Source: Blastocladiella emersonii ATCC 22665 (Eukaryota; Fungi; Blastocladiomycota). Taken from it: a stretch of DNA of 64,000 bases. The translations under genes were made by a program, and so were the position numbers. The notes below the pieces were generated by a model. That model had not been told where the DNA came from and did not search any database. It saw nothing but the letters and a program-made list of their open reading frames with translations. The stretch lies in NCBI GenBank assembly GCA_025594325.1, contig JANHCV010000011.1, forward strand, positions 744,001-808,000, given 5' to 3'. Each line of letters opens with the position of its first letter. The first letter of the stretch is position 1. Of the stretch, positions 10,843 to 28,312 are shown piece by piece.

Positions 10843-11175
10843 GGTGTCGATCGCAAGTGTACTTGGGGAGCGGCAGCGAAGAAGCGCGAAGCCGTTGATG
10901 ACCGCTGCGAGCGCTGCCCAGACAATTCTCCCCCAAAATGTCTCACGGCATTTATCAGACGGGACAGGAGCCTGACTCGCACGAGAGACGCGTCGCGCTC
11001 GCTGCCCGTCTCGCATCACACGAGAGACGCGTCGCGTTGCAGCCCTCTCGCGCCGCGCCGCGCGTCGCGACTTGAAACGCGTCTGCGATGCTCACGTGGG
11101 TGCGACGCGTCGTTGGCTCGCACGAGAGCGATCGCTTCACGACGAAGACATTGGGACCAAGATCGTACGTTGAGT

Positions 11176-11676
11176 CTATTCAGGGTCGAGCGGCCGGATC
11201 CGGAAGGCAAACCCAGTTGGACGGGTGCGCCGTACGGGGCATCGCGTCCTGCTTATCGCGCTACCCGCCCTGCAGCCCGCCCTGCAGCCCGCCCTGCAGC
11301 CCGCCCTGCAGCCCGCCCTGCAGCCCGCCCTGCAGCCCGCCCTGCAGCCCGCCCTGCAGCCCGCCCTGCAGCCCGCCCTGCAGCCCGCCCTGCAGCCCGC
11401 CATGCAGAACTGCATGAGTTCTAGTTGTGAGTTATGCAGTCGAGCGGCGCGAAGAAAGGCATAGGGACCTGTTGCGCTGAGCGCTTGCTGTTGGACCTCG
11501 GTGCCAGCGAAGGACGGGCACGTTGTTAGGTGGAGGAGGCACGCTGCGCGGTCGCCTTTCGGGAACACACGATGGCACTGCTTGCAACGACGTCTTACAT
11601 GACGCCGCGTCGCAAGTTTGGGGCCAAGCTCCTCGAAGTGCTCGGCCACAAGTGGGTGAAGCCGTGGGGGGCTCAT
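11176..11676 (-). pseudogene. Second BED-finger ORF, paralogous to the transposase N-terminus, ending in a tandem repeat
   Basis: MSPPRLHPLVAEHF...RRRCKQC...KGDRAACLLHLTTC aligns by eye with MSNRLHPLVTENF...RRCKHC...KGDRQTCLLHLTQC. No DDE core follows. Confidence 0.6.
11264..11400 (+). repeat. Perfect 12-bp tandem repeat (CCCGCCCTGCAG), about 11 copies
   Basis: Directly visible; translates as ALQP x11 or AGCR repeats. Confidence 0.95.
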
Positions 11677-11980
11677 GGTCGCAAGCGATGCCAGAAGGTT
11701 GACGGCGGTAGCGGATCGGATGCTGATGGGCGCTGTGTCTCTGAATCGTGTCGTACGAGTGCTGGGATTCATGTCCGGGAAGGAGGAACGACGCGGAGTC
11801 CGACGCGTGGCCGCCACGCAAGCAGCCCGCGACGGTTCCGCACCCGAGTGACCTCATCGATGTCACGTGTGGCTCTGAAACCTCGGGAAACCTCTCTTTT
11901 GAACGAGCCGCCGTGGCTGAGCCGCCTCGCGAAAGAAGCCACCCGAAATTCGCATTATTGACTGAGTGAGGGGAACATAC

Positions 11981-13051
11981 TGTCGTATCCCTTAAGGGAT
12001 ACGACATGGGCTGACCCACTGCCACTCGGGCTGACCAATTGCTTACCCCGAGCAGTTGGCAGCAGTCACTCGGGGTAACCACGTGAGACCCCGTTGCTTA
12101 CCCCGGGTGGTTAATAATATGTCGGATTCAAATGTCGGATTCCCTTAGGGAACACGACACGCGGGCGGAGGCCGAAGGCCGAAGAAGGGCGGCGGCGGGC
12201 GGGGTCACGTGGGTCACGTGCAGATGAACAGCGCGTGGACACGGCTGCGAGTCGATCTGCGAGTCGATCTGCGAGACAAGTCCGAGAGCAGATCCCTGAG
12301 CCCGTCCCTGACCAACCGCTCGGGCTGACCATTGCTTACCCCGAGCGGTCGGCGGCGGCTGGCGAGCGCAGCGAGACGAAGAGCAGCGCAGCTGCGGCTA
12401 CCCACTGACAGAGTTCCCTGGTCTGGTCCCTGAGCACAGCTGCAAGTCGATCTGTTTGGTCGCGGCAATAGGCCCTTGAAGGCTCTTGGAATAATTCCAC
12501 GAGAGGTCGGCGGTCAGTCCAAGAACGCAAGCAGCGACCCGGGTCGGCGACCACGGAGTCACTCCACGAGCCGGCCCACGACTTGGTCGGCGACTTGGTC
12601 GCGGCAATAGGCCCTTGAAGGCTCTCGGAATAATTCCACGAGAGGTCGGCGGTCAGTCCAAGAACGCAAGCAGCGACCCAGGTTGGCGACCAGCCCCTGA
12701 CGGCTCTCGATGGCCGCCCCGAACTGGACCGGGTTGGAGCTCACTGGACCGGGTTCAAAGACAACCCGGTCCATGAAATTCGCTCGGGGTAAGCCATGGA
12801 CCAGGTTGACCGGGTTGACCGGGTTGTTTTAAAGTAACAGTGTAGTGAAAAGGGGGGAGGGACCGCTCCAGTGCCACTCTTCCCCCCCTTTCAAATCCCT
12901 AAAGGTCAATCGACCCCCTCAACCCGGTCCACCCGGTCCATGGCTTACCCCGAGCGAATTTCAATTGACTTGGTCCATTGAACCCGGTCCATGGCTTACG
13001 GCGAACGATTCAAAGGGCGGGAAACCTGGTCCAGGCTGCCGTGACCCGGTC
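11981..13051 (+). repeat. Left TIR of the PLV (1,071 bp)
   Basis: Reverse complement of 26179-27249. Only three mismatches seen by eye (12966, 13022, 13027). Confidence 0.95.
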
Positions 13052-13190
13052 CATGGCTTACGGCGAGCTGTTCAAAAAGTGGGCAGGGGCCCTGGTCGGG
13101 TCCACGATGCCGTAGTGTGTCCCGTTGCTACGTCATGCCAAGTGCGTTGAATGCGTTTGTCAATTTAAACTTTGTTGGACTACTGTAACT

Positions 13191-13343
13191 ATGCGAGGCT
13201 GTATCAAAGAGATCGCCCCCCTGCCCAAGCCGCCATGCGATCACTATGATGCTCCCAGCTGGGTCCATGACAATGAGCTGCTGTGGGTCCAAGTCGTGTA
13301 CCCGTGCTGCGGGCACAAGTACACATACCGCCGGGTAGTCTGA
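13191..13343 (+). CDS. PLV small Cys/His-containing protein (50 aa), unknown function
   Basis: MRGCIKEIAPLPKPPCDHYD...YPCCGHKY; immediately preceded by TTTGTTG-N8-TAACT. Confidence 0.4.
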   Translation: MRGCIKEIAPLPKPPCDHYDAPSWVHDNELLWVQVVYPCCGHKYTYRRVV

Positions 13344-13603
13344 GAGCGACCAGTAAAGGCTTCAAGGTAGCTAACCAAGTTAACTTGAAGGATCTATTCA
13401 AAGCAGACAGTGTACACAACCTTGGCACCTGGCAGGGCCACGTCGCGGATGGCCGTGTAGTTGGCTGTCGACTGGGGGCCCGGACGGCCAGTCCAAGGGA
13501 TGCTCGTGGAAGGTGCGCGGGGCGTTGATGCAGTAGAGCCAGTATTCATTGTCCTGTGTCTTACTATGCCTTCGCAGAAAGAATTTAAAGCACATGTCGT
13601 TGC

Positions 13604-13705
13604 TTACTCTACGGCGTGGAATACTTTGCTTGTGTACCTGACAATGGCCAGGTTGGCTACAAGGATCAGGGCGTTGGTGGCAACAAGGAGCGTCTCGAGG
13701 ATCAT
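13604..13705 (-). CDS. PLV 33-aa predicted single-pass membrane peptide (absent from the ORF track)
   Basis: Manual translation MILETLLVATNALILVANLAIVRYTSKVFHAVE*; preceded by TTGTTG-N8-TAAAC-ATG. Confidence 0.5.
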   Translation of the reverse strand: MILETLLVATNALILVANLAIVRYTSKVFHAVE

Positions 13706-13736
13706 GTTTACAGTACAACAACAATTAAAGTCAACG

Positions 13737-14480
13737 TCAGATGAACGCGAGCTCGACGTAGAAGGGTTGGCCAAGAAAGTCGACAGAGCGCAGGTTCTCG
13801 TCTACCATGTCAATGTCAATACAGTCAATCTGCTGGGCCTGTCCCTGCGCGTCAAAGCGAAAGTAGTCACCCATGTGTGGTCGATGCTCGAACCAGCTGC
13901 CAAAGGGTTGCGTGACGTGGATGCTACAAAGTACGCCGTTGTCTTGTGGGTACGCGCTGTACATGTTGTCCGCGAGCCGGGTGCCAAGGTTGCGCGAGTA
14001 GACGTGAAGCAGGTTGATGGGCGAGATGTTGACCAGCGCCGACGCGTACTGGACCTTGCTGTAGCCATACGCTCCAACAAAGCCCATGTGGACGTTCAGC
14101 GACGCTGTCCCTGTTCCAATTGTAAAGTCGACCGTGTCGTTGGCCAGGCGCATCTTCTGGGTAGTCGAGTCAACCTGGACGTCCCATGTGCCCTGCCAGA
14201 GGTACGCTGAGGGCGCGTTGTTGAGCAGGCTCTTGAGCGTGGCCGTGAACGTCTCGACCGTGTAGTTGCCATCAGGGACGGTGATGGTGCCCGGGAACGT
14301 CAGCGCGCCACGGCTCTGGGTCAGGTACACTTTGTTGGCCTTGGAGTTGACCGTGTGCCAGCTGTTGCAGAGGTACGCCGAGTTGACCTTGACGCCGCGC
14401 ACGGACAGGGGTCGTGGTAGGTACAGGATGCCGTTCTTGAGGTCGCGGCTGCAGATGGTCAGCGTCTTGTACTCGGACAT
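13737..14480 (-). CDS. PLV minor capsid protein (penton, single jelly-roll)
   Basis: 247 aa with the PLV mCP pattern: N-terminal ICSRD, TITVPDGNYT and C-terminal IDIDMVDENLRSVDFLGQPFYVELAF. Lies in the capsid gene block. Confidence 0.75.
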   Translation of the reverse strand: MSEYKTLTICSRDLKNGILYLPRPLSVRGVKVNSAYLCNSWHTVNSKANKVYLTQSRGALTFPGTITVPDGNYTVETFTATLKSLLNNAPSAYLWQGTWDVQVDSTTQKMRLANDTVDFTIGTGTASLNVHMGFVGAYGYSKVQYASALVNISPINLLHVYSRNLGTRLADNMYSAYPQDNGVLCSIHVTQPFGSWFEHRPHMGDYFRFDAQGQAQQIDCIDIDMVDENLRSVDFLGQPFYVELAFI

Positions 14481-14498
14481 TTAAACAAAGACAACAAT

Positions 14499-14765
14499 TT
14501 ATTGTACAGCTGTCCCCGTGTCGTCAGCGTCTGCCTCAAAGATCTCGCTCGTTGGTCGGTTGTACCAGGTGTGAATGTCTTGGGCAAGGTCGGCGCCCTT
14601 GGTCACCATCTGCGCAATGGAGCTCACAGCGGGGTTGTGCGACCGCTCAAAGAACTTGGACACAGCCTTGACGCCTTTGAGGACGGTCGGCATGTGTTTG
14701 TTGACAAAGGACCCGACCTGGCCGAGCACATTGCTAAAGTTGGTCCAGAGGTTACGGAAGATCAT
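14499..14765 (-). CDS. PLV 88-aa protein with N-terminal amphipathic helix (candidate membrane-penetration protein)
   Basis: MIFRNLWTNFSNVLGQVGSFVNKHMPTVLKGVKAVSKFF. Sits between MCP and penton and has its own TTCTTG-N8-TAAAC motif. Confidence 0.55.
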   Translation of the reverse strand: MIFRNLWTNFSNVLGQVGSFVNKHMPTVLKGVKAVSKFFERSHNPAVSSIAQMVTKGADLAQDIHTWYNRPTSEIFEADADDTGTAVQ

Positions 14766-14806
14766 GGCGGGTTTAACTCTATGCAAGAAAAGAAAGGACA
14801 GGGCCG

Positions 14807-16027
14807 TTACTTGTAGATGTTGATCTCGCCGGTTGGCAGGAACTCGTAGACCACGTCGATGCCAATGAAGGCGTCCACGCGCTGGTTTGGGGCCACGCTT
14901 GAAGTCAGGATCACCTGCATGTCCACGGCCTGGCTCTTGCAAGACTTGTCACCGCTGACCACGGTGCGACTCGACTCGAGGTCACGGCCGACAACAAAGG
15001 TACCCTCGGCCAGCGCGTTGAACTTGTCGACTGTGAGGCCAGCGCCAATGACGTGGCCATGGAAGGCATTGGTCAGCTCAACGAACGCCTCGGACGCGTA
15101 GTCGTCACAGCGGATGGGTCGCTGAGGGAAGAGTCGGCCGGCCACGCTGAACTGGTACGATGTAATGGTCTTGGCACGAAGGAACGAGTCCTTGGCATTG
15201 TCGTTGAGCACGGCATTGTCGCGGAACGACAGCAGGATGTCTTTCTGTGAGGCCAAGCGGTCCGAGATGTTGAGCGTCGAGTTGGGCACCGAGTAGTTCA
15301 GGAAGTGGTGGTTGTAGGTCGTGCCAAAGAGCTTGAGGCCCTGCTTCTTGAAGGCCGCGTCCATGACCGCGATCTGCTGGTCGTTGAGCTTGATCAGGTC
15401 CGAGACAATGCAGACGTCCTTGACTGTGTAGCCCGGGATTGCATTGTTCTTGACCACGCAGGCGTCGCTGCCAGGTGCAAGGGTGAACTCGACGCGGATG
15501 CCGCCCGTGTACTTCATTGGGAGGTGCTTCTGGTTTGCCAGCAGGGCGGATTTGATGGGCAGCATGTACCGGTGCAGCCCGGACGAGACGGCGAACTTGT
15601 CAGCGCCGGACGCAAAGTAGCCCTGTGCCACACCAAGACACGAGTCCTTGAGGTACTGGGGGACCGTCACGTCGGCCTCGATGCGCTGACGCAGGTTGTA
15701 GTACGGGAGCTCTTCGAGTAGGGCACCGGACGCGCTGTAGATGCGGACACGGTCAATGACGCTGAAGATACCATCGCAGAAAGCAACGTTGGCGTCCGTG
15801 GTCTTGGCCGAGAACTGCAGGAAAGTACAGTGCGTGTCCATCATGTCGTCGCGCGGCGGGAGCAGGACGCTGATGCTGTTGCCAGGAGCAAACTCGGGGC
15901 CGCCCTGAGCCGTGAACTGGACGGTCTGGCGCTTGGCATAGACGGACTCCTTGGGCAGGTTGAACGACATCTCGGGAGGGAGAGTCTTGGACAGGACCTG
16001 CAAGAACTGGGCGTTGGTACTGGACAT
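14807..16027 (-). CDS. PLV major capsid protein (double jelly-roll)
   Basis: 406 aa, beta-rich, with PLV MCP-type motifs HLPMKYTGGIRVEFTLA, SYQFSVAGRLFPQRPI and TFVVGRDLE. Adjacent to the packaging ATPase. Confidence 0.85.
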   Translation of the reverse strand: MSSTNAQFLQVLSKTLPPEMSFNLPKESVYAKRQTVQFTAQGGPEFAPGNSISVLLPPRDDMMDTHCTFLQFSAKTTDANVAFCDGIFSVIDRVRIYSASGALLEELPYYNLRQRIEADVTVPQYLKDSCLGVAQGYFASGADKFAVSSGLHRYMLPIKSALLANQKHLPMKYTGGIRVEFTLAPGSDACVVKNNAIPGYTVKDVCIVSDLIKLNDQQIAVMDAAFKKQGLKLFGTTYNHHFLNYSVPNSTLNISDRLASQKDILLSFRDNAVLNDNAKDSFLRAKTITSYQFSVAGRLFPQRPIRCDDYASEAFVELTNAFHGHVIGAGLTVDKFNALAEGTFVVGRDLESSRTVVSGDKSCKSQAVDMQVILTSSVAPNQRVDAFIGIDVVYEFLPTGEINIYK

Positions 16028-16067
16028 GGTTTAGTTTAGGACTCGGCAACAAAAAAAAGTCAAGAGT

Positions 16068-16865
16068 CTACTGCTTCACGATCCACTCGCTGAAGCTGTC
16101 TACGAGCCGGTACTTGGGCGGGTTCTGGTTGTTGACGCCCAGGAAGCGTCGCTTCGTGTTGCCAGTACGCGTGTCAAAGAGCTGTTCAATGATGGCCTCA
16201 AACTCCTTGAGGTCGAACTGCGACCCAATCTCCTTGTGCAGCGTCTGGACCTCGGTCTTGTCATAGATTGGGTAGACCACGCTGTAGCTGCAGTTGATAC
16301 GCAGGGTCTTGGGCAGGGCACACCACCGCTGGACGCCAATGATGCAGCTGATCTTCAAGTGCTGCGAGTTGCACAGAAAGTTGGTCAGCGTTTGGTGGCT
16401 CAGCAGCTTGAGCCCAAGCACGTCGTCGATGATCAGCAGCTGGTCCTGGAGCGCCTTCTTGCCAGACTCTTCGAATGTCTTGGTCAGGTCCTGGCGCATC
16501 TTGAGCAGGGTCGGGATGAACTGCTCGGGGTCCGTGACGATGCAGCTTGGCTTGATCTTGAGCCAGTCCGGGTCGCGCTCCTGGGGGTCCAGCACGTTGC
16601 GCTCCTTCTTGGGCGGTCGCAGGATCGGTTGACTGGCAATGTACTTGTACTTGTCGTCGGCGTGGAACGTCGGGTTAAAGACCCAGATGTTGTCGAACTG
16701 GCCCTTGTAAAAGTGCGGGAAGCAGACCATGTTTGCGATCAGCGTCGACTTGCCCTGACCCTTGGCGCCAATGACGTTCATGGTGAACGGGTGCTTGGGG
16801 ATCGGCAGCGGCTCGCCGTCGTCGTTGCGCGTAAAGCCGTTGTCAATGGCAACAATGTCGTACAT
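16068..16865 (-). CDS. A32-like (FtsK/HerA) genome-packaging ATPase
   Basis: Walker A GAKGQGKST, Walker B LLIIDD, SQHLKISCIIGVQ sensor strand and LPKTLRIN. Confidence 0.9.
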   Translation of the reverse strand: MYDIVAIDNGFTRNDDGEPLPIPKHPFTMNVIGAKGQGKSTLIANMVCFPHFYKGQFDNIWVFNPTFHADDKYKYIASQPILRPPKKERNVLDPQERDPDWLKIKPSCIVTDPEQFIPTLLKMRQDLTKTFEESGKKALQDQLLIIDDVLGLKLLSHQTLTNFLCNSQHLKISCIIGVQRWCALPKTLRINCSYSVVYPIYDKTEVQTLHKEIGSQFDLKEFEAIIEQLFDTRTGNTKRRFLGVNNQNPPKYRLVDSFSEWIVKQ

Positions 16866-16891
16866 TTAAAGACTGCCAACAAAAAAGGGCG

Positions 16892-18607
16892 TCAGTCCCA
16901 GCCGAGGTCAAGCACAATGCCGCTGCGCCTTGGGGTCTCACGGACCTGCTTGACGGGCCGCTCAGGGATCTTCTGGTGACGCTGGATCTTGGGCGCTGTC
17001 AGCCCGCTACCCGCTGCCCGCTTGTCTGTGAACAGCTTCGCGTCGGTCGGCTTCTTGTAGCCCAGTTGCTTGAGGATCTGTTCGAGGAGCATGTCGGTCT
17101 TCTTAGAACTACTGCCAGAATTGTTTTGCGCGGCCAGCTCCCTGATCATGGCCTCAAGGCCGCTTGTGTCGGCAGGCTGGACAATGACTTGGGGTGCAGG
17201 GATCGTGTCCAGCTTGGACCCAAGGTCTTGGAGCGTCTTGGTCATGGCCTCGTTGCTCTGGGTCTGCCCTTGGATCGCGCCCTGGACGCCGCTTGCGAGC
17301 TGGTTCATGAGCACCTGCTGGTTGCTGAGCGCAGAGGACATGCCCGTGGCAATCTCAGACACAAGCGCGCGGTTGCCAGCGTCAATCTGGCGGACAAAGT
17401 CGTTGCGTTCGGCTCGGAGCGTGTCCACGATCCCAGACGCGAGGTTGGCAAATGCGTCCATGGCCAGTCCCTGAGCGGCCGCCGACTGCTCGATGAGCGC
17501 CTGGTACGCCTGGTACTGCATGACCTGGGACCCGGCAAACTGCGAGGCAATGAGCTCGAGCGCGGCCATGACGTTCGGGTCATTGTTGTACTGGACCAGG
17601 ATCTGCTGCCGCATGTCCACGTTCTGCTCGTAGTAGTTGTTCTCGTACTGGGTGATGAACTGCCGCATGTCGACGTTCTGCGTGTTCTGCTGCGTGTAGC
17701 TGTTGTACACGAACTGGTTAAACTGTTGAAAGTTCTGGACAACGTCGACCTCCATGTCGTCTGTGGTTGTCAGCGCCTGCTCGGGGTTGTAGACCTGCAA
17801 GTCCTTGGAGCCCTCGATCATGCGTGCCTCGTCCATGGCCGGGTGGACGTGACCCTCGTTGTACACGCCTTGCCGCTGTGCCACGTCCGGGCCGTAGCTT
17901 GGTGGCATGACCACGAGGTCGCGGGTGCCGTCGTCAAGCCTTGGGGGCGGGTCGTTGCCGCCGTCATTGTCATTCTGGATCAGGTACTGGCCGGGGATCA
18001 TGGCGCCGTACTTGTCAATGTCTTGACCAACATAGTCGCCGGCCTTGACCGGGTACTGCTCGGGCATGACTGGCCGGACGGGCACGGGGAGCAAGTGGTC
18101 CGGTACAGCGTCCTCGTCAATGACGTCCAGGGCTCGCGAGATCTCTTCTGCCAGCTCGTCGCGCTCCTCTTCGCTGCTGCCCCTGTTGCTGTCCGTGGCC
18201 AACTCGGGGGCCTCTGGTCTGGGGCTTGCCGCTGGTGGAGCAACTGGGACTCGAGTGACCTTGCCCGTTGCCTGGTGCTCTTCCCACGCTTTAAGCGTGT
18301 CTTGGACGTGCTCCTGGAGGTCCTTGACCTCGTACCCAGTGACGCCGTCCTGGTGCTTGAGGTAGAACAGCGAGTCGCCTCGTTTGCGGCCAAAGTCGTT
18401 GGCATAGCTCTCGGGCGTCACCTTGTAGTCAAAGGCAAGGATGTAAGGCACCCAGACGTCGAGGAGCTCTTTGGCATTGGGGAACGTGTACTCGCGGCCA
18501 TCAATGGTCGCCTTGATCTTCTGCCCTGCAAGGCGCTCAGCCGTGATGCGGCCGTTGGTTGCCTTGGTCACTCTTGCAAGTAGTTCTGGTACTGTTCTTC
18601 GGCCCAT
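16892..18607 (-). CDS. PLV 571-aa protein of unknown function with a Q/N-rich segment and helical C-terminal half
   Basis: Long open frame with codon bias like its neighbours; internal repeat QNVDMRQ x2; basic C-terminus. Confidence 0.7.
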   Translation of the reverse strand: MGRRTVPELLARVTKATNGRITAERLAGQKIKATIDGREYTFPNAKELLDVWVPYILAFDYKVTPESYANDFGRKRGDSLFYLKHQDGVTGYEVKDLQEHVQDTLKAWEEHQATGKVTRVPVAPPAASPRPEAPELATDSNRGSSEEERDELAEEISRALDVIDEDAVPDHLLPVPVRPVMPEQYPVKAGDYVGQDIDKYGAMIPGQYLIQNDNDGGNDPPPRLDDGTRDLVVMPPSYGPDVAQRQGVYNEGHVHPAMDEARMIEGSKDLQVYNPEQALTTTDDMEVDVVQNFQQFNQFVYNSYTQQNTQNVDMRQFITQYENNYYEQNVDMRQQILVQYNNDPNVMAALELIASQFAGSQVMQYQAYQALIEQSAAAQGLAMDAFANLASGIVDTLRAERNDFVRQIDAGNRALVSEIATGMSSALSNQQVLMNQLASGVQGAIQGQTQSNEAMTKTLQDLGSKLDTIPAPQVIVQPADTSGLEAMIRELAAQNNSGSSSKKTDMLLEQILKQLGYKKPTDAKLFTDKRAAGSGLTAPKIQRHQKIPERPVKQVRETPRRSGIVLDLGWD

Positions 18608-18684
18608 GATGGTTACTGTATGGACCGAAAATAAAACGTCCCCCTGTCGGTACCTTTTTCCCCGTGGCAGGTGCCTTTTGTCCC

Positions 18685-18936
18685 TCAGACGGTGCTATTT
18701 GCCCCCTGGTCCTGGCGCTTGGCGTTGAGTGCCTTGTAGATCCGGATCTTGACCCGCTCTGCCCGCGCTGCCTCGTCGTCAACGTGCGTGTACCGGTTGG
18801 CCTTGCAGTCGCGCTTCCGTAGCCACTTGGCCTTGTCCTTGTCGCTCTTGCTGTACCAGCTGCTTGGCACGGGCATGGTCCCGGCGAGGTGCTCCCGCCA
18901 CTCGTCCAGGCTCAGGTCATGGTCGCTGGAAATCAT
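18685..18936 (-). CDS. PLV small basic protein (83 aa)
   Basis: K/R-rich ORF with TTCTTG-N8-TAACC upstream, divergent from the fibre gene. Confidence 0.5.
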   Translation of the reverse strand: MISSDHDLSLDEWREHLAGTMPVPSSWYSKSDKDKAKWLRKRDCKANRYTHVDDEAARAERVKIRIYKALNAKRQDQGANSTV

Positions 18937-18956
18937 TCTGTTGCTTAAGGTTAAAC

Positions 18957-20900
18957 ATGGTCAAGAATATCTTTAACGTCTCAAGTACTGCGTCTCCGAC
19001 CGTGTCTACCACAGGGGTCCCGGACGTGTCCAAGGCCTACGTTGATGCGGCCATCAGTGCCGTGTACGCCACGGTCGGCGCACCTGTTGCTGGCCCTGGC
19101 GTGGCAGTCTCAGGGACCACTGTCTCGGCCAAGGTTGACGACCAGACCCTTGGCGTGGGCGCAGCAGGGCTCTATGTCAAGTCAGTCGGCACAGCACAGC
19201 TGCTCCCGGCCAGCGTCACAGCCGACAAGGTCGCCACGATTACAGCAGGGCAGGTCACAGGCAAGCTCGTTGATGCTCAGCTGGACACTGTGTCTGCGTC
19301 CAAGGTTGTGGGCGTACTCAGTGCGTCCAACCTCCCAGCCGTTGGGACCTCGGTTCTGGCAGATGGCTCAGTGACTGATGCCAAGGTCGCGTCCGTGTCC
19401 GGGTCCAAGCTCGTGGCAGGCACAGTTGGGACCTCGGTCCTGGCAGACGGCTCAGTGACTGATGCCAAGGTCGCGTCCGTGTCTGGGTCCAAGCTCGTGG
19501 CAGGCACAGTTGGCACGGCGGCTCTCATCGACCTGGCAGTCACAGATGCCAAGGTCGCGTCCGTGTCTGGGTCCAAGCTCGTTGCAGGGACTATTGGGAC
19601 GGGAGCCCTGGCAGACGGTGCCGTATCCAACGCCAAGGTGGCAGCTGGCATCGACGGGTCCAAGCTGGCAGCGGGCACAGTCGGCTCCCTGGTCCTGGCA
19701 GACGCGGCCGTGACCAACGCCAAGCTGGCAACTGGCATTGATGGGGCCAAGCTCAACGTTGGGTCCATTGGAACAGCCCACCTGGCAACAGGCGCGGTCA
19801 CAGACGCCAAGGTTGCGGACGTGTCAGCGGTCAAGCTCACTGGGATCCTTGACCCTGCCCGCATCGCCGACGGGACCCTGACCAACGCCAAGCTGGCATC
19901 TGGCATTGACTCGGCCAAGCTTGCAGGGACCATTGACCTGGCACGACTCCCCGACGTCTCGGCCAAGGTCACGGCCGTGAGCGCAGCCTCGGTCATTGGC
20001 ACGCTCCCCCAGTCCACCCTTGGACTTGGCGCTGCCTTTGCCTTTGCAAATACGACGGACAGTTTGACATCAAGCACTGGAGCAGTCACCATTGCTGGTG
20101 GTCTTGGAGTTGGCAAGCAACTGACTGTGCCCAATGTCCTGGTCCGGAATGCCACAAGCGCGAACCTTGTCTTTGACTCGGCTGCCAATACATTGACGTA
20201 CGTCGACTTTAAGCAGGCAGGCGTACTGCGAAGCAACCTGGCATGCACAGCGGCGGGTAACATTGAGATTGCGTCTGCGACCACGGGCAGGGTCTCCCTT
20301 GTGGCAGGTGGCGGCAATGTGGTTGTGGGCTCGGCGACGCTTGGCACAGAAAGGTTCCGCGTCAATGGCACTGGTCGCTTCACAGGGCAGCTCACCCTTG
20401 ACCTCGCTCCAGTGGCAGGCACTGATGCGGCAAACAAGGCGTACGTTGACTCGTGGTCTGGCACAACCCGGTACGTCACTCAGGCCAAGCACCGCTCTAC
20501 AAACGGAGTGACCACGGGTGGCAAGATCATTGGCGGCACAGCATCGACGGGCCTGGCCACCTTTGCGTTCCAGTCCACGGCGGGCGCGTTCACGTCTGTG
20601 ATCAATGGATGCGTCAAACCCCCTGTCAGTGGCTACTACCTCGTCCATGCAAAGGGCTACTACGCAAACGGCGCGCTCCCTGGAGCCCACACTGTGAACT
20701 TTGCGCTGTACAATATGACGGACATGATTGCAGTGTTGCTTGTCACCGGGTGCCGCGCTGAAGGCAATGTCCAGTTCCTTCAGTTCTCGAGCATTGAGTA
20801 CCTTGACGCGGCCAAGAGCTACTCTTTCATCTGGATCCCGTTGGTCGCAGTTGCCAACGACTGCCAGGTCATCATTCAAAGCCACTGGACCCTGCTCTAA
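18957..20900 (+). CDS. PLV fibre/spike-like protein with repeat shaft and a probable C1q/TNF-like head
   Basis: Start MVKNIF (ATG 18957). About 28-aa repeats GTSVLADGSVTDAKVASVSGSKLVAGTV, then STGAVTIAGGLGVGK, DAANKAYVD and C-terminal KPPVSGYYLVHAKG. Confidence 0.7.
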   Translation: MVKNIFNVSSTASPTVSTTGVPDVSKAYVDAAISAVYATVGAPVAGPGVAVSGTTVSAKVDDQTLGVGAAGLYVKSVGTAQLLPASVTADKVATITAGQVTGKLVDAQLDTVSASKVVGVLSASNLPAVGTSVLADGSVTDAKVASVSGSKLVAGTVGTSVLADGSVTDAKVASVSGSKLVAGTVGTAALIDLAVTDAKVASVSGSKLVAGTIGTGALADGAVSNAKVAAGIDGSKLAAGTVGSLVLADAAVTNAKLATGIDGAKLNVGSIGTAHLATGAVTDAKVADVSAVKLTGILDPARIADGTLTNAKLASGIDSAKLAGTIDLARLPDVSAKVTAVSAASVIGTLPQSTLGLGAAFAFANTTDSLTSSTGAVTIAGGLGVGKQLTVPNVLVRNATSANLVFDSAANTLTYVDFKQAGVLRSNLACTAAGNIEIASATTGRVSLVAGGGNVVVGSATLGTERFRVNGTGRFTGQLTLDLAPVAGTDAANKAYVDSWSGTTRYVTQAKHRSTNGVTTGGKIIGGTASTGLATFAFQSTAGAFTSVINGCVKPPVSGYYLVHAKGYYANGALPGAHTVNFALYNMTDMIAVLLVTGCRAEGNVQFLQFSSIEYLDAAKSYSFIWIPLVAVANDCQVIIQSHWTLL

Positions 20901-20926
20901 AGCCCGCGGTCCCACTTTTCTTGGAC

Positions 20927-22009
20927 TCAGACTGGGACGCGCCTGACCCGGGTCGAGGGCTCCCTTGGCGTGACTGGGGTGCGCGCAACAGGGAGCCTTG
21001 GAAGACCTGGACCTACGCGCTGCCTTGTTGGCGGGTCCTGGGTCGCTGTGACTGGCTGGACGTCGCTTCGAGGGTAGAAGCCCTTGAGGCCTTGGACCTT
21101 GTAGCTCGGATTGCTTACGCCCGACCCCTTGCGCACGACCTGGACCTGGCTCACAGTTGTCAACCAGACCGGCTTCCCCTTGGCCTCCATGGCAGTCTTG
21201 TACGGCTCGCGGACTCGGACCTGGGTCCCTACCTTCAACAACGCGCTCAGAGGGTCGCCCTCGGGCTTGCCCTTGGCAGCTTGGATCTCCTTGAGCTCTT
21301 GCTTGGCCGTTTCGCAGGGCATGTCATGGAACGCGTTGGGTGCCTTGCTTGTGGCCCTCGACTTGCTGCTGTTGATCACAGATTCAATGGTCTTGAGGTG
21401 CTTGGGCCAGTCGTTGTTGCCCGGGATGGACAGCCACGGTGTGAGCATCCGGCGGATGGTCCCGTTCATGCGTTCAACAACACCTTGACCGTATGGCACT
21501 CCTGCCTTGCCCTTGATGTGCTTGGCCTCGGCCCCGGCCTCTATGCCAAAGAACTCAGTCCCATTGTCCGTCTGGATTGTGGCAGGTGTAAGGCTGTGCT
21601 TGGCAACCACGCTGGACCATGCTTCCTGCGTCTTGTCCTTGGTCTTGATGGGTTGGAGGTAGACGCGGCGGCTCGCCAGGTCGACACACGTGAGAATGTA
21701 ACGGAAGCCCTTGTACGTACCGTTTTCGCCCATGTCAATGAGGTCGAGCTGAAAGTTGCGGCCAGGACTTGTTGAGTTGATGCTTCGAATGTCTCGGCGC
21801 TTCTGAGGTGCGCGCTTGTACTGCTGCCACACGGACTGGTCGTTGAGCCACCGCTCGAGCTGGGCGCGGTAAATGTGCTTCCCTGTATGCTCGCGGTCAA
21901 CAATGTCAAAGAGACGGCGGATCCCGACCCCAACATGGCCGCGTTTGTAGTACAAGTCTTTCAGGTACTCGGTCTGTTCAGCAGTCAAAGGTTCTTTGTG
22001 GGCATACAT
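20927..22009 (-). CDS. Retroviral-type (rve) DDE integrase of Polinton type
   Basis: FQLDLIDM (D), IQTDNGTEF (D), QGVVERMNGTIRR (E), and a C-terminal LKVGTQVRV SH3-like segment. The catalytic triad is intact. Confidence 0.92.
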   Translation of the reverse strand: MYAHKEPLTAEQTEYLKDLYYKRGHVGVGIRRLFDIVDREHTGKHIYRAQLERWLNDQSVWQQYKRAPQKRRDIRSINSTSPGRNFQLDLIDMGENGTYKGFRYILTCVDLASRRVYLQPIKTKDKTQEAWSSVVAKHSLTPATIQTDNGTEFFGIEAGAEAKHIKGKAGVPYGQGVVERMNGTIRRMLTPWLSIPGNNDWPKHLKTIESVINSSKSRATSKAPNAFHDMPCETAKQELKEIQAAKGKPEGDPLSALLKVGTQVRVREPYKTAMEAKGKPVWLTTVSQVQVVRKGSGVSNPSYKVQGLKGFYPRSDVQPVTATQDPPTRQRVGPGLPRLPVARTPVTPREPSTRVRRVPV

Positions 22010-22037
22010 TGTATTAACAAAGGCGGAGACAAAAGGA

Positions 22038-23165
22038 TTACTGAGGCGTCATGTAGTAGGTCAGCGCAACGGGGACGCTGTGACCCATCTCGTGCGCGCG
22101 TTTGGCAATAGCTTGCTGCGCAGCAAAGTTCTCACTGGTGGAGATACGGCGGATCACTGCCACGCCGCCATCCTCAAAGCCGACCGTCTTTGCAGCCCGA
22201 CTAATCGACGTACACCAGGTGCTGCTAACCCTCTTGCGGAGCGTGGTGTCCTTGAGCTCCTCGAGGGTGTAGTTGTTGAAGACAAAGTCATGACCTTCGG
22301 CGAGACGCTGGGCGAGGATACGCTTGAGAGCGGCGGCGACCTTGGGCTCACTAACTGTGTGCGAGAAGTTGTAGCCACAGCCCTCTGTCTTGACAATGAC
22401 ATCGCCGGCCAGAATCTGGGTCTCTGGGTCGTAGTACGGGTACCCAGTGGTTGGCTTCGTGGTCAGGAACGCAGGGTCGGAGCGCACCGCACTCACAACT
22501 TGGAGGTACAGACGCAGGAGCCCCGTGCCTGAGCCCTTTGCATCAACAATAGCGGCGCAAATGGCGTCACGGCTCGGGAGCGCACCAGACTCAAGTTCCT
22601 TGCGCGCGTCGCGGAAGTCGGCAGCGTCCTGCTTCTTGGCCTCTGTGTACTTGGCCCCGAGTTCGGTCCACCCGTTCCAGGTGCAGTACTTGGCCAGGGC
22701 CTTGAGCGTCTCGACCTGCAGACCCTGGACGTTCTTGGACCCCTTGATCGCGTGGTACGTGGCCACGGCCTTGGACACGGCATCGACGTCGTGGATATCC
22801 ATGCCCGACTTGGCAAATGCAAGGAGCACGCGAGTTGTCTTGGTCTTGTCCGTGTCGCTCAGCGTGGCCTGCTCCCCGTTCTTGTCCACCACAGGCGCGT
22901 TGACACATGCCTCGATGGCATCCTCGGTCAGCTCGGCAAACTTGACCTTGGGGGTGTCGACTTCCACAGGAGTGACTTGCTGATCAGCGCCGTGATCTGG
23001 GTCATGTGACTCAATGGCCTTGAGTCGCGCGTCAAAGTCCTTGAAGCGCTTGTCAATAGACCCAAATACGGGCTGGAGCTTGTCCATGACTTGCTGCACC
23101 ACGTCTGCGGCAACATGCTGAGCGAGGGCAACGGCGACCTGGGAGGCAAGAGACTCAAGCGACAT
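22038..23165 (-). CDS. Divergent tyrosine recombinase (virophage/PLV type; candidate telomere resolvase)
   Basis: Order R (AVRSD) - K (IVKT) - R (VIRR) - H (MGHS) - Y (LTYY), with His-to-Tyr spacing of 8-9 residues. The His of the HxxR motif is absent. Confidence 0.7.
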   Translation of the reverse strand: MSLESLASQVAVALAQHVAADVVQQVMDKLQPVFGSIDKRFKDFDARLKAIESHDPDHGADQQVTPVEVDTPKVKFAELTEDAIEACVNAPVVDKNGEQATLSDTDKTKTTRVLLAFAKSGMDIHDVDAVSKAVATYHAIKGSKNVQGLQVETLKALAKYCTWNGWTELGAKYTEAKKQDAADFRDARKELESGALPSRDAICAAIVDAKGSGTGLLRLYLQVVSAVRSDPAFLTTKPTTGYPYYDPETQILAGDVIVKTEGCGYNFSHTVSEPKVAAALKRILAQRLAEGHDFVFNNYTLEELKDTTLRKRVSSTWCTSISRAAKTVGFEDGGVAVIRRISTSENFAAQQAIAKRAHEMGHSVPVALTYYMTPQ

Positions 23166-23247
23166 GGTTTACTGACTGTCAACAAAAAGGCTCCATGGGC
23201 TCAAGTGCGTTTGAACACAACGTTCTTTTTTCTGGGTAGCTGGGCCT

Positions 23248-23647: not shown

Positions 23648-23775
23648 ATACCTTTTTGCAGTGACTAACTGCACACGTACCCAGACACAGCCAGCAGCAA
23701 TAGCGATAATCGCAGCGCTTCAAAAGCACGGCCCCGCCCCCGCTCCCAGACTGCGTTTTTCCGCATCAAAGTAAA

Positions 23776-26118
23776 ATGCTTTATTCTGTGCTTAACAGTA
23801 ACTACTCGGCCATGCCCCAGCTGACCAAGATCGCCAAGACCCTCGACTACACCAAGTCCATGTTCACGGACTCGCGCCAGGTCGGGCTGCGCGAGTACTA
23901 CAACAAGGACGTGCTTGACGGGCTCTGCGCGCGGTACTCGGGCATCGACGCCGAGGTCAAGAAGAAGCTCAAGGCCTACGCGGCGCTGGCCAAGGCGAGC
24001 TACGGCGACGGCAAGGAGACCGTGTACTCGTTCACCACGCGGTCGACCTCGGTCGAGAAGAAGTTTGGCCGACTCTACGCCACGTCGCCGTCGCTCCAGA
24101 GCTTCAGCAAGGACCTCATCCGCAGCCCGCTGGCCAAGGGCGTGCTCCAGGACCTTGACATGAAGGGCGCGGCGCCGTCGATCCTCCGCGGCGTCTGCCA
24201 GCACTACAACCTTGGCCACGGCGTCTTTGACCAGTACCTCGCCAACCGCACGGCCGCGCTGGCCAAGTGGGGGCTCAGGGATAAGCAGGAGTTCCTCTCG
24301 ATGCTGTTCAATGAGTTCGTCGACCGCGACGCGGTGCACCCCGAGCTCGCGGCCTTCCACCACATGCTGTACGGCTCGCTGTACAAGCTGATCGAGAAGG
24401 ACTTTCCGCACGTCGTCAAGGCGTCCAAGCCTCGCACGGACAAGACCATGAACAAGGGCTCGGTGCTCTCCAACCTGTTCCAGGCCGTCGAGTCGATCCT
24501 CCTGATGCGCGCCATTGACTTTGCCCGCGCCAACGACCTTGTGCCAAGCGTGCTTGTGTTTGACGGGTTCATGGTCAAGAAGGACGACCGCATCAACGCC
24601 GAGCTGCTCGCCAAGATGTCCGCCGACACGCTCAAGTACACGGGCTTCGAGGTGGAGTGGGACGAGAAGGAGATCACGGTGCCTGAGTCCAAGGACAAGG
24701 GCAAGCTCCCCGACTTTTGCGAGGACCCGGCCGCGTTTGTTGCCGTGCAGCTCGAGCGTGACCCGCACTACGATGACGACTGGATCGGCAAGGTCATCTC
24801 CCACTACCTCAGCCGCGAGGTGGACGAGGACAAGCAGTCGTGGAAGGAGGCCGTGATCAAGTACGTGGGCGAGTTTGTCCGCAAGGACCTGGTCGGCGAG
24901 ATGTACTTTCGCCGCACCGTGACCAACGCGTGGGACACCAATGGCGAGGACAACGTGAAGAAGGCGTGCAGCATGGGGGCCATCAAGTACGCTCCACAGG
25001 TCAAGGCGCTCATCTTTGACATGCACAAGCCGCGGTGGGGGCCGTCGCACCAGAACGGCCTTGTGGTTGACTACTTTAACGCGTTCTATGGGTTTGCGGC
25101 CACGGACCTTGGCCGCGACATTGAGCCCGAGTCGATTGCCATGTACCTCAAGTACATTCGCAACGTGGTCTGCAGCGGCAACGAGGAAGAGTACGCGTAT
25201 GTCCTCAAGTGGATCCAGTGTCTGCTCACCACGGGCAAGGCCAATGGCGTGATGCTGCTGCTGACGGGTCTCGAGGGCGTGGGCAAGGGCAAGTTCTACC
25301 ACCTTCTGGCCCAGTACATTATCGGCCGCAAGAACACGGTGTCCATCAGCAACGGGCCGACGTGGCTCAAGGGCGAGTTCAACTCGGAGATCGCCCACAA
25401 GATGCTCGTGCTGTTCGACGAGATGCCCTCCAGCAAGCCAGCCGAGCTCAAGAACGCGTTTGACAAGCTCAAGAGCATGGTCACCGAGGACAAGCTCATT
25501 GTCAACGAAAAGTACATGAAACGCAAGGAGGTCGAGAACGTCAACAACTTTATGATCGCGACCAACAACTGCGACGTGCTGCCACTCACCAAGACTGGTC
25601 GCCGCGAGTTCGTCCTCAAGATGTCCAACATCAAGTGCCAGGACGAGAACTACTTTGGCGAGCTCGACGCGTTTGTCAAGGAGCACGCCGACGAGATCTT
25701 TACCTACATCCTCCGCCTCGACCTCTCGCACCTGACGCTGTCCAAGTTCCCGCGCAACCAGGCCCGCAACAACGCCATCATGGCGGCACTGGAGCCGGTT
25801 CCCGCGCTGGCCATGGACATCATGGAGTACGGCGGCTTCCCGCTCAACCTCCTGGACCACACGCGCCAGGTCGAAGTCGTGCAGGAGCTCGAGGCAGACG
25901 CGTTCTACGAGTTTTACCGCAAGTACGCCGAGAAGCGCTTCCCTGGCCGCTCGTCCATGTCGCAGACCAAGTTCGGCGAGTACATCAAGCGCGAAGTCAA
26001 CCCGGCCAACAAGCAGGAGCTCTTCGAGGTGACGCGTCGCACCGTGAATCGCCGCAAGCTTCACATCTACAAGTACCGCGGGCCGTACACAGTTGAGCTG
26101 TCCGACGACGAGATGTAA
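23776..26118 (+). CDS. TVpol (family A polymerase-like primase) fused to a D5-like superfamily 3 helicase
   Basis: N-terminal FGRLY...LQDLDMKGAAPSIL and LVFDGFMV. C-terminal Walker A GLEGVGKG, Walker B VLFDE and motif C IATNN. A second possible start, MPQL, lies at 23812. Confidence 0.85.
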   Translation: MLYSVLNSNYSAMPQLTKIAKTLDYTKSMFTDSRQVGLREYYNKDVLDGLCARYSGIDAEVKKKLKAYAALAKASYGDGKETVYSFTTRSTSVEKKFGRLYATSPSLQSFSKDLIRSPLAKGVLQDLDMKGAAPSILRGVCQHYNLGHGVFDQYLANRTAALAKWGLRDKQEFLSMLFNEFVDRDAVHPELAAFHHMLYGSLYKLIEKDFPHVVKASKPRTDKTMNKGSVLSNLFQAVESILLMRAIDFARANDLVPSVLVFDGFMVKKDDRINAELLAKMSADTLKYTGFEVEWDEKEITVPESKDKGKLPDFCEDPAAFVAVQLERDPHYDDDWIGKVISHYLSREVDEDKQSWKEAVIKYVGEFVRKDLVGEMYFRRTVTNAWDTNGEDNVKKACSMGAIKYAPQVKALIFDMHKPRWGPSHQNGLVVDYFNAFYGFAATDLGRDIEPESIAMYLKYIRNVVCSGNEEEYAYVLKWIQCLLTTGKANGVMLLLTGLEGVGKGKFYHLLAQYIIGRKNTVSISNGPTWLKGEFNSEIAHKMLVLFDEMPSSKPAELKNAFDKLKSMVTEDKLIVNEKYMKRKEVENVNNFMIATNNCDVLPLTKTGRREFVLKMSNIKCQDENYFGELDAFVKEHADEIFTYILRLDLSHLTLSKFPRNQARNNAIMAALEPVPALAMDIMEYGGFPLNLLDHTRQVEVVQELEADAFYEFYRKYAEKRFPGRSSMSQTKFGEYIKREVNPANKQELFEVTRRTVNRRKLHIYKYRGPYTVELSDDEM

Positions 26119-26178
26119 CAAGTCCAGAGACTCCTTTGTGAATACAACTTTGTACCTTTTGTTTACTGTACTCGCAGC

Positions 26179-27249
26179 GACCGGGTCACGGCAGCCTGGA
26201 CCGGGTTGCCCGCCCTTTGAATCGTTCGCCGTAAGCCATGGACCGGGTTCAATGGACCAAGTCGATTGAAATTCGCTCGGGGTAAGCCATGGACCGGGTG
26301 GACCGGGTTGAGGGGGTCGATTGACCTTTAGGGATTTGAAAGGGGGGGAAGAGTGGCACTGGAGCGGTCCCTCCCCCCTTTTCACTACACTGTTACTTTA
26401 AAACAACCCGGTCAACCCGGTCAACCTGGTCCATGGCTTACCCCGAGCGAATTTCATGGACCGGGTTGTCTTTGAACCCGGTCCAGTGAGCTCCAACCCG
26501 GTCCAGTTCGGGGCGGCCATCGAGAGCCGTCAGGGGCTGGTCGCCAACCTGGGTCGCTGCTTGCGTTCTTGGACTGACCGCCGACCTCTCGTGGAATTAT
26601 TCCGAGAGCCTTCAAGGGCCTATTGCCGCGACCAAGTCGCCGACCAAGTCGTGGGCCGGCTCGTGGAGTGACTCCGTGGTCGCCGACCCGGGTCGCTGCT
26701 TGCGTTCTTGGACTGACCGCCGACCTCTCGTGGAATTATTCCAAGAGCCTTCAAGGGCCTATTGCCGCGACCAAACAGATCGACTTGCAGCTGTGCTCAG
26801 GGACCAGACCAGGGAACTCTGTCAGTGGGTAGCCGCAGCTGCGCTGCTCTTCGTCTCGCTGCGCTCGCCAGCCGCCGCCGACCGCTCGGGGTAAGCAATG
26901 GTCAGCCCGAGCGGTTGGTCAGGGACGGGCTCAGGGATCTGCTCTCGGACTTGTCTCGCAGATCGACTCGCAGATCGACTCGCAGCCGTGTCCACGCGCT
27001 GTTCATCTGCACGTGACCCACGTGACCCCGCCCGCCGCCGCCCTTCTTCGGCCTTCGGCCTCCGCCCGCGTGTCGTGTTCCCTAAGGGAATCCGACATTT
27101 GAATCCGACATATTATTAACCACCCGGGGTAAGCAACGGGGTCTCACGTGGTTACCCCGAGTGACTGCTGCCAACTGCTCGGGGTAAGCAATTGGTCAGC
27201 CCGAGTGGCAGTGGGTCAGCCCATGTCGTATCCCTTAAGGGATACGACA
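26179..27249 (-). repeat. Right TIR of the PLV (1,071 bp)
   Basis: Reverse complement of 11981-13051; the ORF track gives mirror-image translations in both copies. Confidence 0.95.
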
Positions 27250-28312
27250 CATACCCGAGGGAACACCCCTCGTCAAGTTCCCAGGAACGGAACGTTCCCT
27301 TGTTCCGGAACGTTCCTGTAACGTTCCAATGTTCCGTTCCGTGCACCCTCCGGGAGGCCACAAACCGTGACGCGCCTGTCACTTCAAGCACGCCCACTGC
27401 ATGTGCTTTTCGGGACTTTGCGTCGGCGCGAGTGCGCGCCCTCGCTGCCGCTGCGAGACGGGCCGCTCCTCTCTGTGACGGTCCCCTCAAGCTGACCTCG
27501 CCCTGCGCTACGCGCCGCCTCCGCTCCGTCACGTTCCAGCCGTGCGCCCGGCGCTCCTCTCAGCTGCTCACCGTCGCGGTTGCGAGCGAGCGCGGGTCGC
27601 GAACAGCCGCGCCCCAACTGCGCGCCGTCTCGGCCCGCGATGCGCCGCTCCTTGATCGGGCAAGCCGTCGGCTCGCATGCTGAGCGCGGGGAGCCCGGGG
27701 CCGCGAGCGTCGATCGTGAGCGATCGGACGCCGTTCGGGGCGAGGTCGGCGGCGCCCGCCAGGGCCACGGCAACGTTGCATGCGGTGCCGCCGCGAACAG
27801 CGTGCTCAAGGCCGTGCCGCACGCCGCACGGCGCGCCCGCGTTGGCCAGGGCGTTGGTCTCGCGCGGGGCTGCGCGCGGGGCTGCCCGGCTGAGCGGGTC
27901 GCGAAGGACTGCTCGCGCGCGGGCGGGACGCGGGGCGGGACCAGTGTTGGCTGTCTCGCGCGCCTGGCTCGACGCCGCCGCCGTCCTGCTCAGTGCGACA
28001 CGATGAGGCGAGGCGTGACGGGTCGGAGCCTCTTGGGAGCGCGCTCAGTCAAAGCTTCGAGTTGTTGCAGTGGTTACATGACGATATATTCGCGTTAGAG
28101 CGCTGTGTGTGATGCGGAGGGATCGGGGAACAGGGGTTCGAGGGGCAGGGTGGTGGGGAGGTGGCCTGCAGCCGGCGGTCCTTGGCTGCGAAGCGGCGGG
28201 GAAGCTCTCAAAGGAGCGCGGCGGCCTGCAAAGCGGCGGGGGTGCCTGCAAAGCTGTGGGGAGCTGCCTGCAAAACGGGGTGGGCGCCTGCGAGCCTGAA
28301 ACGAATTTCGTG

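What the first reader, a model, noticed from the sequence alone, without database searches (positions are those of the whole stretch)
11981..12006. Each viral end is a perfect 26-bp palindrome, consistent with a hairpin-ended genome opened by the integrase
Seen: TGTCGTATCCCTT|AAGGGATACGACA is a perfect palindrome at 11981-12006 and 27224-27249, and it stops exactly at the TSD. Established: rve integrases join a CA-3'OH to target DNA, and opening a hairpin off-centre leaves a palindromic extension. Inference: a linear genome with a hairpin tip at the TT|AA axis, nicked after the CA 13 nt from the tip, would give exactly this integrated end. Cutting a head-to-head replication junction would give the same product. 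The element has no protein-primed polymerase, so it needs another solution to end replication, and hairpin ends would supply one.
Basis: partly seen in the sequence, partly recalled or inferred. Interest (0 to 1): 0.88.

Follow-up and report, generated by a model that had tools for sequence, protein, structure and literature searches.

The report
Mirror-sequence ends of fungal provirus
A 15-kb virus-like element inserted in what is likely an aquatic fungus ends on both sides in a perfect 26-letter mirror sequence, likely the unfolded form of hairpin-closed genome ends (an end type that a 2026 preprint already proposed for related viruses of a protist), and it carries a recombinase that could be the enzyme that makes those hairpins.

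Summary
Observation confirmed. A 15,269-bp element (11981-27249; 1,071-bp terminal inverted repeats, 5-bp target duplication CATAC) begins and ends with a perfect 26-bp palindrome. At least 10 contigs with different flanks join at the same base, so this is the family's end and not an accident. It reads as a Polinton-like virus, likely of Blastocladiella emersonii (37 sequences related to the putative capsid gene): A32 ATPase, rve integrase, SF3 helicase, no pPolB. Best reading (0.5): the palindrome is an unfolded hairpin end. The recombinase could cut it out and re-close it like a telomere resolvase (about 0.25). That the integrase itself opens the hairpin is one of three routes to the same product, all untested. 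No fold-back or free genome was seen; only contigs were available. Not new as a trait: palindromes next to TSDs in non-pPolB virophages/PLVs, with a hairpin model, are in bioRxiv 10.64898/2026.07.28.741278, and this scan noted one in another chytrid (e1-7219827).

The parts
11976..11980 (.). left target-site duplication CATAC
11981..12006 (.). left terminal perfect 26-bp palindrome (TG...CA), axis 11993|11994; folds as an 11-bp stem with a 4-nt loop, -10.8 kcal/mol
12005..12008 (.). CATG dyad at the inner edge of the palindrome: a CA ends at the same bond on both strands
   Evidence: sequence
11981..13051 (+). left TIR, 1,071 bp, with short repeated motifs (CCGGTCCA 7 times here against 2 outside both TIRs)
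12133..12159 (.). internal degenerate copy of the palindrome (27 nt; 11 of 13 arm pairs here, 13 of 13 with the two letters read in other copies); mirrored at 27071-27097
13737..14480 (-). 247-aa ORF, putative minor capsid protein (inferred from position and size; no family hit)
14807..16027 (-). 406-aa ORF, putative major capsid protein (inferred, not confirmed by HMM or fold); 37 related sequences at 84-97% identity, cluster representatives named Blastocladiella emersonii
16068..16865 (-). A32-type packaging ATPase (Pfam Pox_A32, E 1.4e-11)
16892..18607 (-). 571-aa ORF with no significant family hit
18957..20900 (+). 647-aa fibre-like protein
20927..22009 (-). rve integrase, D89/D148/E179 (Pfam rve E 1.3e-6, below the curated cut-off)
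22038..23165 (-). tyrosine-recombinase / topoisomerase-IB fold protein, likely OLV11-like Yrec; putative R228, K259, R339/R340, H362, Y371
23776..26118 (+). 780-aa primase-helicase: C-terminal SF3/D5-like helicase shown; N-terminal PolA/TVpol-like domain inferred from recalled motifs only
26179..27249 (-). right TIR
27224..27249 (.). right terminal perfect 26-bp palindrome
27250..27254 (.). right target-site duplication CATAC

Best explanation
The 26-bp palindrome is the fixed end of a multi-copy, integrase-bearing virus-like element that lacks a protein-primed polymerase, and it is likely the unfolded form of a hairpin that would close each end of the free linear genome. Proposed cycle. (1, inferred) The integrated palindrome looks like a replicated telomere junction, so the element's tyrosine recombinase could cut it near the axis and re-close it, freeing a hairpin-ended genome. 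(2, inferred) The primase-helicase with host polymerase copies around the hairpins, giving head-to-head junctions that the same enzyme resolves. (3, partly shown) The rve integrase joins the terminal CA-3'OH to host DNA with a 5-bp stagger; TG...CA ends and the 5-bp duplication are seen. (4, inferred) Host repair copies out the folded arm, restoring the full palindrome at both ends. Odds: hairpin or fold-back end about 0.55; recombinase as hairpin former about 0.25; integrase as direct opener about 0.2.
For: The palindrome is exact and abuts the TSD at both ends. Many junctions share its first base: X1 has 11 contigs with loose flanks at 11980/11981, X2 has 10 at 11979-11981, X3 has 5 at 11981 (one sample, and one contig per run may be this element's own right end). 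Diverged copies keep the boundary: X3 record 18 (8 other letters and 1 gap in 126) starts at 11981; X4 record 9 matches 11980-12003 and then runs 132 unlike letters. In other copies the internal repeat is fully paired (13 of 13) and differs from the terminal one on both arms in matching fashion. No pPolB. The 375-aa ORF has a YR/TopIB fold (Foldseek PDB ranks 1-5 are XerH, TelA, XerA, TelA, XerH, all E 0.01-0.02; viral best E 6.7e-5; VIA Z up to 9.7). The MGH-x8-Y motif is present in 17 of 18 homologues and the first Arg motif in 14 of 18. It sits in the TIR + primase-helicase + YR 'end module' of PMC11296320. Palindromes go with non-pPolB replication genes in Halocafeteria. A eukaryotic precedent exists for resolvase-made hairpin ends at a palindrome, with fold-back reads (phaeovirus, PMC13236599).
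Against: No free genome, fold-back read or strand-changing joint was seen (contigs cannot show ends). The recombinase is not specifically protelomerase-like: VIA gives TelK Z 5.4 and TelA 4.9 against TopIB 9.7 and XerA 9.4, and there is no telomere-resolvase Pfam hit in 9 aligned members; the model is moderate (pLDDT 74, pTM 0.52, C-terminal 24 residues below 50). In Halocafeteria PLV subtype 4 has palindromes although PLVs there are said not to carry both rve and Yrec, so the pair is not required. Papers assign Yrec to integration into host or giant-virus DNA. One X4 contig (depth 8) appears to have an extra central T and a changed third base, which a strict self-complementary resolvase core would tolerate badly. 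Symmetric covariation fits a dimer-binding site as well as hairpin copying. The absence of listed variants inside the palindrome is weak, because contigs end there.
Confidence: 0.5

Rival explanations
1. The palindrome is a symmetric binding or recombination site (loxP/dif-like) for the tyrosine recombinase on an open-ended linear or circular genome. Because a palindrome is also a direct repeat, recombination between the two ends would excise a circle carrying one copy, and the integrase later cuts and inserts it. No covalent hairpin exists.
For: YR fold closest to Xer/Int/Cre/TopIB. Arm length about 13 bp suits a YR dimer (recalled). Yrec-bearing PLVs are predicted to circularize (PMC4642659). 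HIV-1 integrase cleaves a palindromic LTR-LTR junction (PMC1905944 abstract). A second, internal copy of the site exists in each TIR.
Against: Classical YR sites have an asymmetric spacer (recalled), whereas this core is perfectly symmetric like telomere-resolvase sites. No solo palindrome between two host flanks appeared among the loose-end rows shown (24 of 71, 10 of 14). Palindromes occur in a PLV subtype said to lack the rve+Yrec pair.
Confidence: 0.27
2. One reading: hairpin-ended genome, and the rve integrase alone nicks after the CA 13 nt from the tip and joins it to the target; the recombinase has another job.
For: The product is exactly as seen. DDE triad present. In Halocafeteria the palindromes go with 'particular RVE integrases'.
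Against: The enzyme would have to treat the 13-bp stem as the viral end with the whole genome left attached beyond the CA, the reverse of the usual geometry (inference from recalled intasome structure). The usual geometry would use the inner CA at 12006|12007 and lose the palindrome. No biochemical precedent for an rve integrase opening a hairpin was found in searches.
Confidence: 0.2
3. Self-priming ends (Halocafeteria model, parvovirus-like): the genome is open-ended, the palindrome folds back transiently to prime synthesis, a nick at the inner CA lets the arm be copied out, and the integrase uses ordinary blunt CA ends.
For: The CATG dyad puts a CA at the inner edge on the opposite strand (about 1 in 16 by chance). 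The hairpin is stable (-10.8 kcal/mol). The model is proposed.
Against: The element encodes a primase-helicase-type protein, so self-priming is not needed. No HUH/Rep nickase was found among 10 ORFs.
Confidence: 0.2
4. An accident of repair or assembly (strand switch at one insertion).
For: Raised as an alternative in the Halocafeteria preprint.
Against: The same boundary is seen in 10 or more contigs with different flanks and in diverged copies; independent contigs cross the left junction unchanged.
Confidence: 0.03

Closest known systems
Terminal palindromes of Halocafeteria seosinensis virophages (subtypes 1, 2, 5, 6) and PLV subtype 4 (bioRxiv 10.64898/2026.07.28.741278; sections 6, 7, 9, 10 and passages read, figures and supplements not seen)
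   Same: Palindrome at the TIR extremity next to the TSD; non-pPolB replication gene; rve integrase; hairpin model proposed.
   Different: Fungal rather than stramenopile host; 26 bp versus 52 nt in subtype 5; here a PLV-type element carries both rve and YR, which that paper reports only for virophages; the sections read propose hairpin priming, not resolvase-made closed ends or opening by the integrase.
Mid-GC EMALE virophages of Cafeteria burkhardae (PMC8547959, passages)
   Same: rve plus YR plus a primase/helicase with possible polymerase domain; TSDs mostly 3-5 bp.
   Different: Virophages with a protease; the words hairpin and palindrome do not occur in the main text; YR assigned to integration into giant-virus DNA.
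PgVV/Gezel-14T and the PLV 'end module' (10.1101/2022.07.28.501842, PMC4642659, PMC11296320; passages)
   Same: Linear TIR genome, OLV11-like Yrec beside TVpol-SF3 helicase next to a TIR. PMC11296320 mentions YR dimer resolution at hairpin ends, for a poxvirus.
   Different: The gene list read for PgVV names no rve; terminal hairpins are not reported in the passages read.
Telomere resolvases (N15 TelN, TelK, Agrobacterium TelA) and the phaeovirus telRL-like site (PMC3558466, PMC13236599; passages)
   Same: YR-type chemistry on a perfect palindrome giving hairpin ends; this is what the best reading says the system works like.
   Different: The protein here is not closer to TelA/TelK than to Xer/TopIB; the site lies at the proviral ends and is regenerated by rve integration, whereas in phaeoviruses it is internal and a separate YR integrates.

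Membership tests
Polinton-like virus (PLV) | 15-30 kb element with terminal inverted repeats | tested here: met
   15,269 bp, 1,071-bp TIRs
Polinton-like virus (PLV) | A32-type packaging ATPase | tested here: met
   Pox_A32 E 1.4e-11
Polinton-like virus (PLV) | double jelly-roll major capsid and minor capsid proteins | tested here: inconclusive
   406-aa and 247-aa ORFs beside the ATPase; no hit in Pfam, PHROGs or PDB sequences; not folded; identity inferred from position, size and recalled motifs
Polinton-like virus (PLV) | no maturation protease | tested here: inconclusive
   no protease family among 10 ORFs, but the 571-aa ORF and small ORFs are unassigned
Polinton/Maverick (strict) | protein-primed PolB | tested here: not met
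   no Pfam hit, 0 motif hits in six frames
Polinton/Maverick (strict) | rve integrase and 5-6-bp TSD | tested here: met
Tyrosine recombinase superfamily | YR/TopIB catalytic fold with R-K-(H)xxR-H-Y residues | tested here: met
   fold; motifs R228, K259, R339/340, H362, Y371, assigned from sequence; first His of HxxR not present; Phage_integrase best E 0.0049 in 2 of 9 members
Telomere resolvase (protelomerase) | homology to TelN/TelK/TelA closer than to other YRs | tested here: inconclusive
   TelA ranks 2 and 4 in Foldseek but E 0.02; VIA Z 5.4 and 4.9, below Xer and TopIB; no Pfam telomere-resolvase hit
Telomere resolvase (protelomerase) | converts a palindrome to two hairpins by 6-bp staggered cuts | not testable with these tools
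   needs purified protein
Hairpin-ended linear genomes | covalently closed ends or fold-back reads at the axis | not testable with these tools
   only contigs were served for the 4 runs; no strand-changing joint listed
Halocafeteria-type palindrome-ended elements | palindrome within the TIR next to the TSD, non-pPolB replication gene, rve integrase | tested here: met
TVpol (PolA-like)-SF3 helicase fusion | N-terminal family-A polymerase domain | tested here: inconclusive
   no HMM or tblastn hit; single-sequence model unusable, pLDDT 35; PolA-like motifs at 98, 126, 260 recognised from recall

The most novel reading that the evidence does not exclude
The tyrosine recombinase carried by many polymerase-B-less Polinton-like viruses and virophages is not a second integrase but a telomere resolvase. 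It excises the provirus directly as a hairpin-capped linear genome by cutting the terminal palindromes and resolves replication dimers, while the retroviral-type integrase re-opens the hairpins and so rebuilds the resolvase site at every insertion. This would be a two-enzyme excision/integration cycle not described for any virus in the papers searched.
Probability: 0.2. Interest if true: 0.8.

Novelty: new member of a known kind. Interest (0 to 1): 0.45.

Why it matters
How Polinton-like viruses and virophages without a protein-primed polymerase copy their ends and leave the host chromosome is open. The trait is already reported once in a preprint. This case extends it to a fungus, in a family of about 37 copies in a culture-collection strain (ATCC name given by the source), and gives a minimal 26-bp substrate plus two candidate enzymes with their catalytic motifs present, so the question can be tested directly in vitro. 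If the recombinase makes hairpins, it would explain why these viruses keep two integration enzymes and would link them mechanistically to phage N15, Borrelia and phaeoviruses.

Tried and rejected
No whole genome is held, so the other copies could not be read in full. Exact palindrome: 0 matches in viral contigs and metagenome contigs; degenerate pattern 0 in viral contigs. Related-locus scans confirmed no relative: putative capsid, helicase (48), integrase alignment (59, 76), recombinase alignment (77). So there is no comparison outside this host. The protein atlas gave no answer. The single-sequence fold of the helicase N-terminus was unusable. PDB sequence searches gave nothing for the recombinase or putative capsid. 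The X4 joint 12003>12166 first suggested a shorter-ended family; one search showed 132 unlike letters between, that is a diverged copy, so that idea was dropped. A 6-bp TSD was rejected because it breaks TIR symmetry by one base. Assembly artefact rejected. Summed contig depth (about 16 times the flank at 12129-12136 in X2) is not used as a copy number. Literature: 'polinton'+'Blastocladiella' 0 papers; 'protelomerase'+'polinton' 0 papers; PMC11426020 not held; subscription journals are not searched.

Full report
Observation. The 26-mer is a perfect palindrome at 11981-12006 and 27224-27249. These are the outer ends of a 1,071-bp inverted repeat with 3 mismatches that bounds a 15,269-bp element. 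CATAC lies directly outside both ends; among duplication lengths 3 to 9 only 5 fits, though a 6-bp reading fits if the last A is given to the target. The chance of 13 paired positions at a named place is 3.7e-8, and the next-longest perfect palindrome in the window is 16 bp.

What the element is. Its ORFs include an A32 packaging ATPase (E 1.4e-11), a fibre-like protein, an rve integrase (E 1.3e-6, below Pfam's cut-off; D89, D148, E179) and a 780-aa protein with a C-terminal SF3/D5 helicase. No protein-primed polymerase was found (0 hits for 4 recalled motif patterns). [quoted passage not shown] A PolA/TVpol domain at the helicase N-terminus rests on recalled motifs only. The 406-aa protein has 7 clusters of relatives with 37 member sequences at 84-97% identity, all 7 representatives named Blastocladiella emersonii. 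The 375-aa protein's 6 other hits carry the same name. The host is therefore likely this fungus, and the element belongs to a multi-copy family. Flanking genes are eukaryotic. PLVs in chytrid genomes are already noted in print (10.64898/2026.06.19.733378, passages); no paper held both 'polinton' and 'Blastocladiella'.

The palindrome is the family's end. Contigs of four runs from one sample were laid on the left end. Loose, unlike flanks end at the palindrome's first base in 11 contigs of X1 (11980/11981), 10 of X2 (11979-11981), 5 of X3 and 2 of X4. The loose-end tables were cut (24 of 71 and 10 of 14 rows shown), and one contig per run may be this element's own right junction. Diverged copies keep the boundary: X3 record 18 (8 other letters and a gap in 126) begins at 11981, and X4 record 9 matches 11980-12003 before 132 unlike letters. 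One X4 contig of depth 8 seems to have an extra central T and a changed third base; it may be an error or a decayed copy. No variant inside the palindrome was listed, but contigs end there, so that is weak. No strand-changing joint was listed; contigs cannot show ends.

First, the 375-aa ORF between integrase and helicase has a tyrosine-recombinase/topoisomerase-IB fold. The model (pLDDT 74, pTM 0.52) gives XerH, TelA and XerA at the top of Foldseek-PDB with E 0.01-0.02, an Aureococcus anophagefferens virus protein at E 6.7e-5 and other viral recombinases, and VIA Z 9.7 for TopIB and 9.4 for XerA against 5.4 for TelK and 4.9 for TelA. PMC4642659 says that this virus encodes an OLV11-like recombinase, so the ORF is likely of that kind. 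MGH-x8-Y is present in 17 of 18 homologues, the Lys motif in 17 of 18 and the first Arg motif in 14 of 18 (two misses are fragments; P0022 has Cys there). It is a YR; it is not shown to be a protelomerase. Second, the palindrome's inner edge reads CATG (12005-12008), so a CA ends at the same bond on both strands. In addition each TIR holds an internal look-alike at 12133-12159 that pairs 11 of 13 here and 13 of 13 with the two letters seen in other copies, and it differs from the terminal palindrome on both arms in matching fashion. Symmetry is thus maintained, by hairpin copying or by a dimeric binder.

How it likely works. Shown: TG...CA ends, a 5-bp duplication and an rve gene, so integration by the integrase is well supported. 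Inferred: the palindrome is an unfolded hairpin. A perfect palindrome is the substrate that telomere resolvases turn into two hairpins (PMC3558466, passages), and a eukaryotic giant virus shows fold-back reads at such a site (PMC13236599, passages). The integrated element thus carries a ready-made resolvase site at each end, which would let the YR excise a hairpin-capped genome and later resolve replication dimers, while integration rebuilds the site. The order TIR, primase-helicase, YR is the 'end module' of PMC11296320, which also mentions YR dimer resolution at poxvirus hairpin ends (passages). I give hairpin or fold-back ends about 0.55 and the YR as hairpin former about 0.25. The main rival is a symmetric recombination site on an open or circular genome, in line with the usual reading of Yrec as an integrase. 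Against the YR model, a Halocafeteria PLV subtype has palindromes although PLVs there are said not to carry both enzymes.

Comparison and novelty. [quoted passage not shown] This scan also noted a 44-bp case in another chytrid (e1-7219827; its DNA not checked). The trait is therefore known. New here are the likely blastocladialean host, a PLV-type element with both rve and YR, the double-CA edge, the covarying internal copy, and the resolvase hypothesis (0 papers hold both 'protelomerase' and 'polinton'; only open-licence literature was searched). Other papers were seen as passages only: PMC10945749, PMC10120064, PMC11788076, PMC13533422, PMC11161782, 10.1101/2025.10.09.676808 and 10.1101/2022.07.28.501842; none reports terminal hairpins of PLVs in the passages shown. 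No relative outside this host could be fetched as DNA.

Verdict. A real, conserved feature; a new member of a recently described kind; mechanism plausible but untested. Interest 0.45.

Noticed in passing
window about 7985-27351: The virus appears to have inserted about 95 bp inside one end of a hAT-like DNA transposon (DUF659 hit E 2e-4 in 9563-10942 minus; matching short terminal repeats near 7985 and 27351; no 8-bp duplication seen).
   Followed up: partly
junction contigs at 11979-11981 (runs X1-X4): Flank ends often read G/C-T/A-N-A/T-G/C (one X4 flank ends in the same five letters as this element's right TSD), hinting at a weak symmetric target preference; based on merged loose-end lines only.
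   Followed up: no
window 12007-12120 and 12720-13060: Further stem-loops and iteron-like repeats in the TIR (first 220 nt fold at z -4.5; CCGGTCCA 7 times in the left TIR, 2 times outside both TIRs): a candidate origin for the primase-helicase.
   Followed up: partly
window 23280-23660: Arrays of 11-13-bp tandem repeats between the divergent recombinase and helicase genes.
   Followed up: no
window 29159-29502: A 344-bp MITE-like element with 47-bp inverted arms.
   Followed up: no
window 5399-6204: Array of 26-bp degenerate tandem repeats.
   Followed up: no
proteins P0010, P0013-P0015, P0012: A second, distant recombinase family (about 39% identity) in the same fungus and a 25%-identity relative from an unnamed 7-kb contig suggest further virus families whose ends could be compared.
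   Followed up: partly
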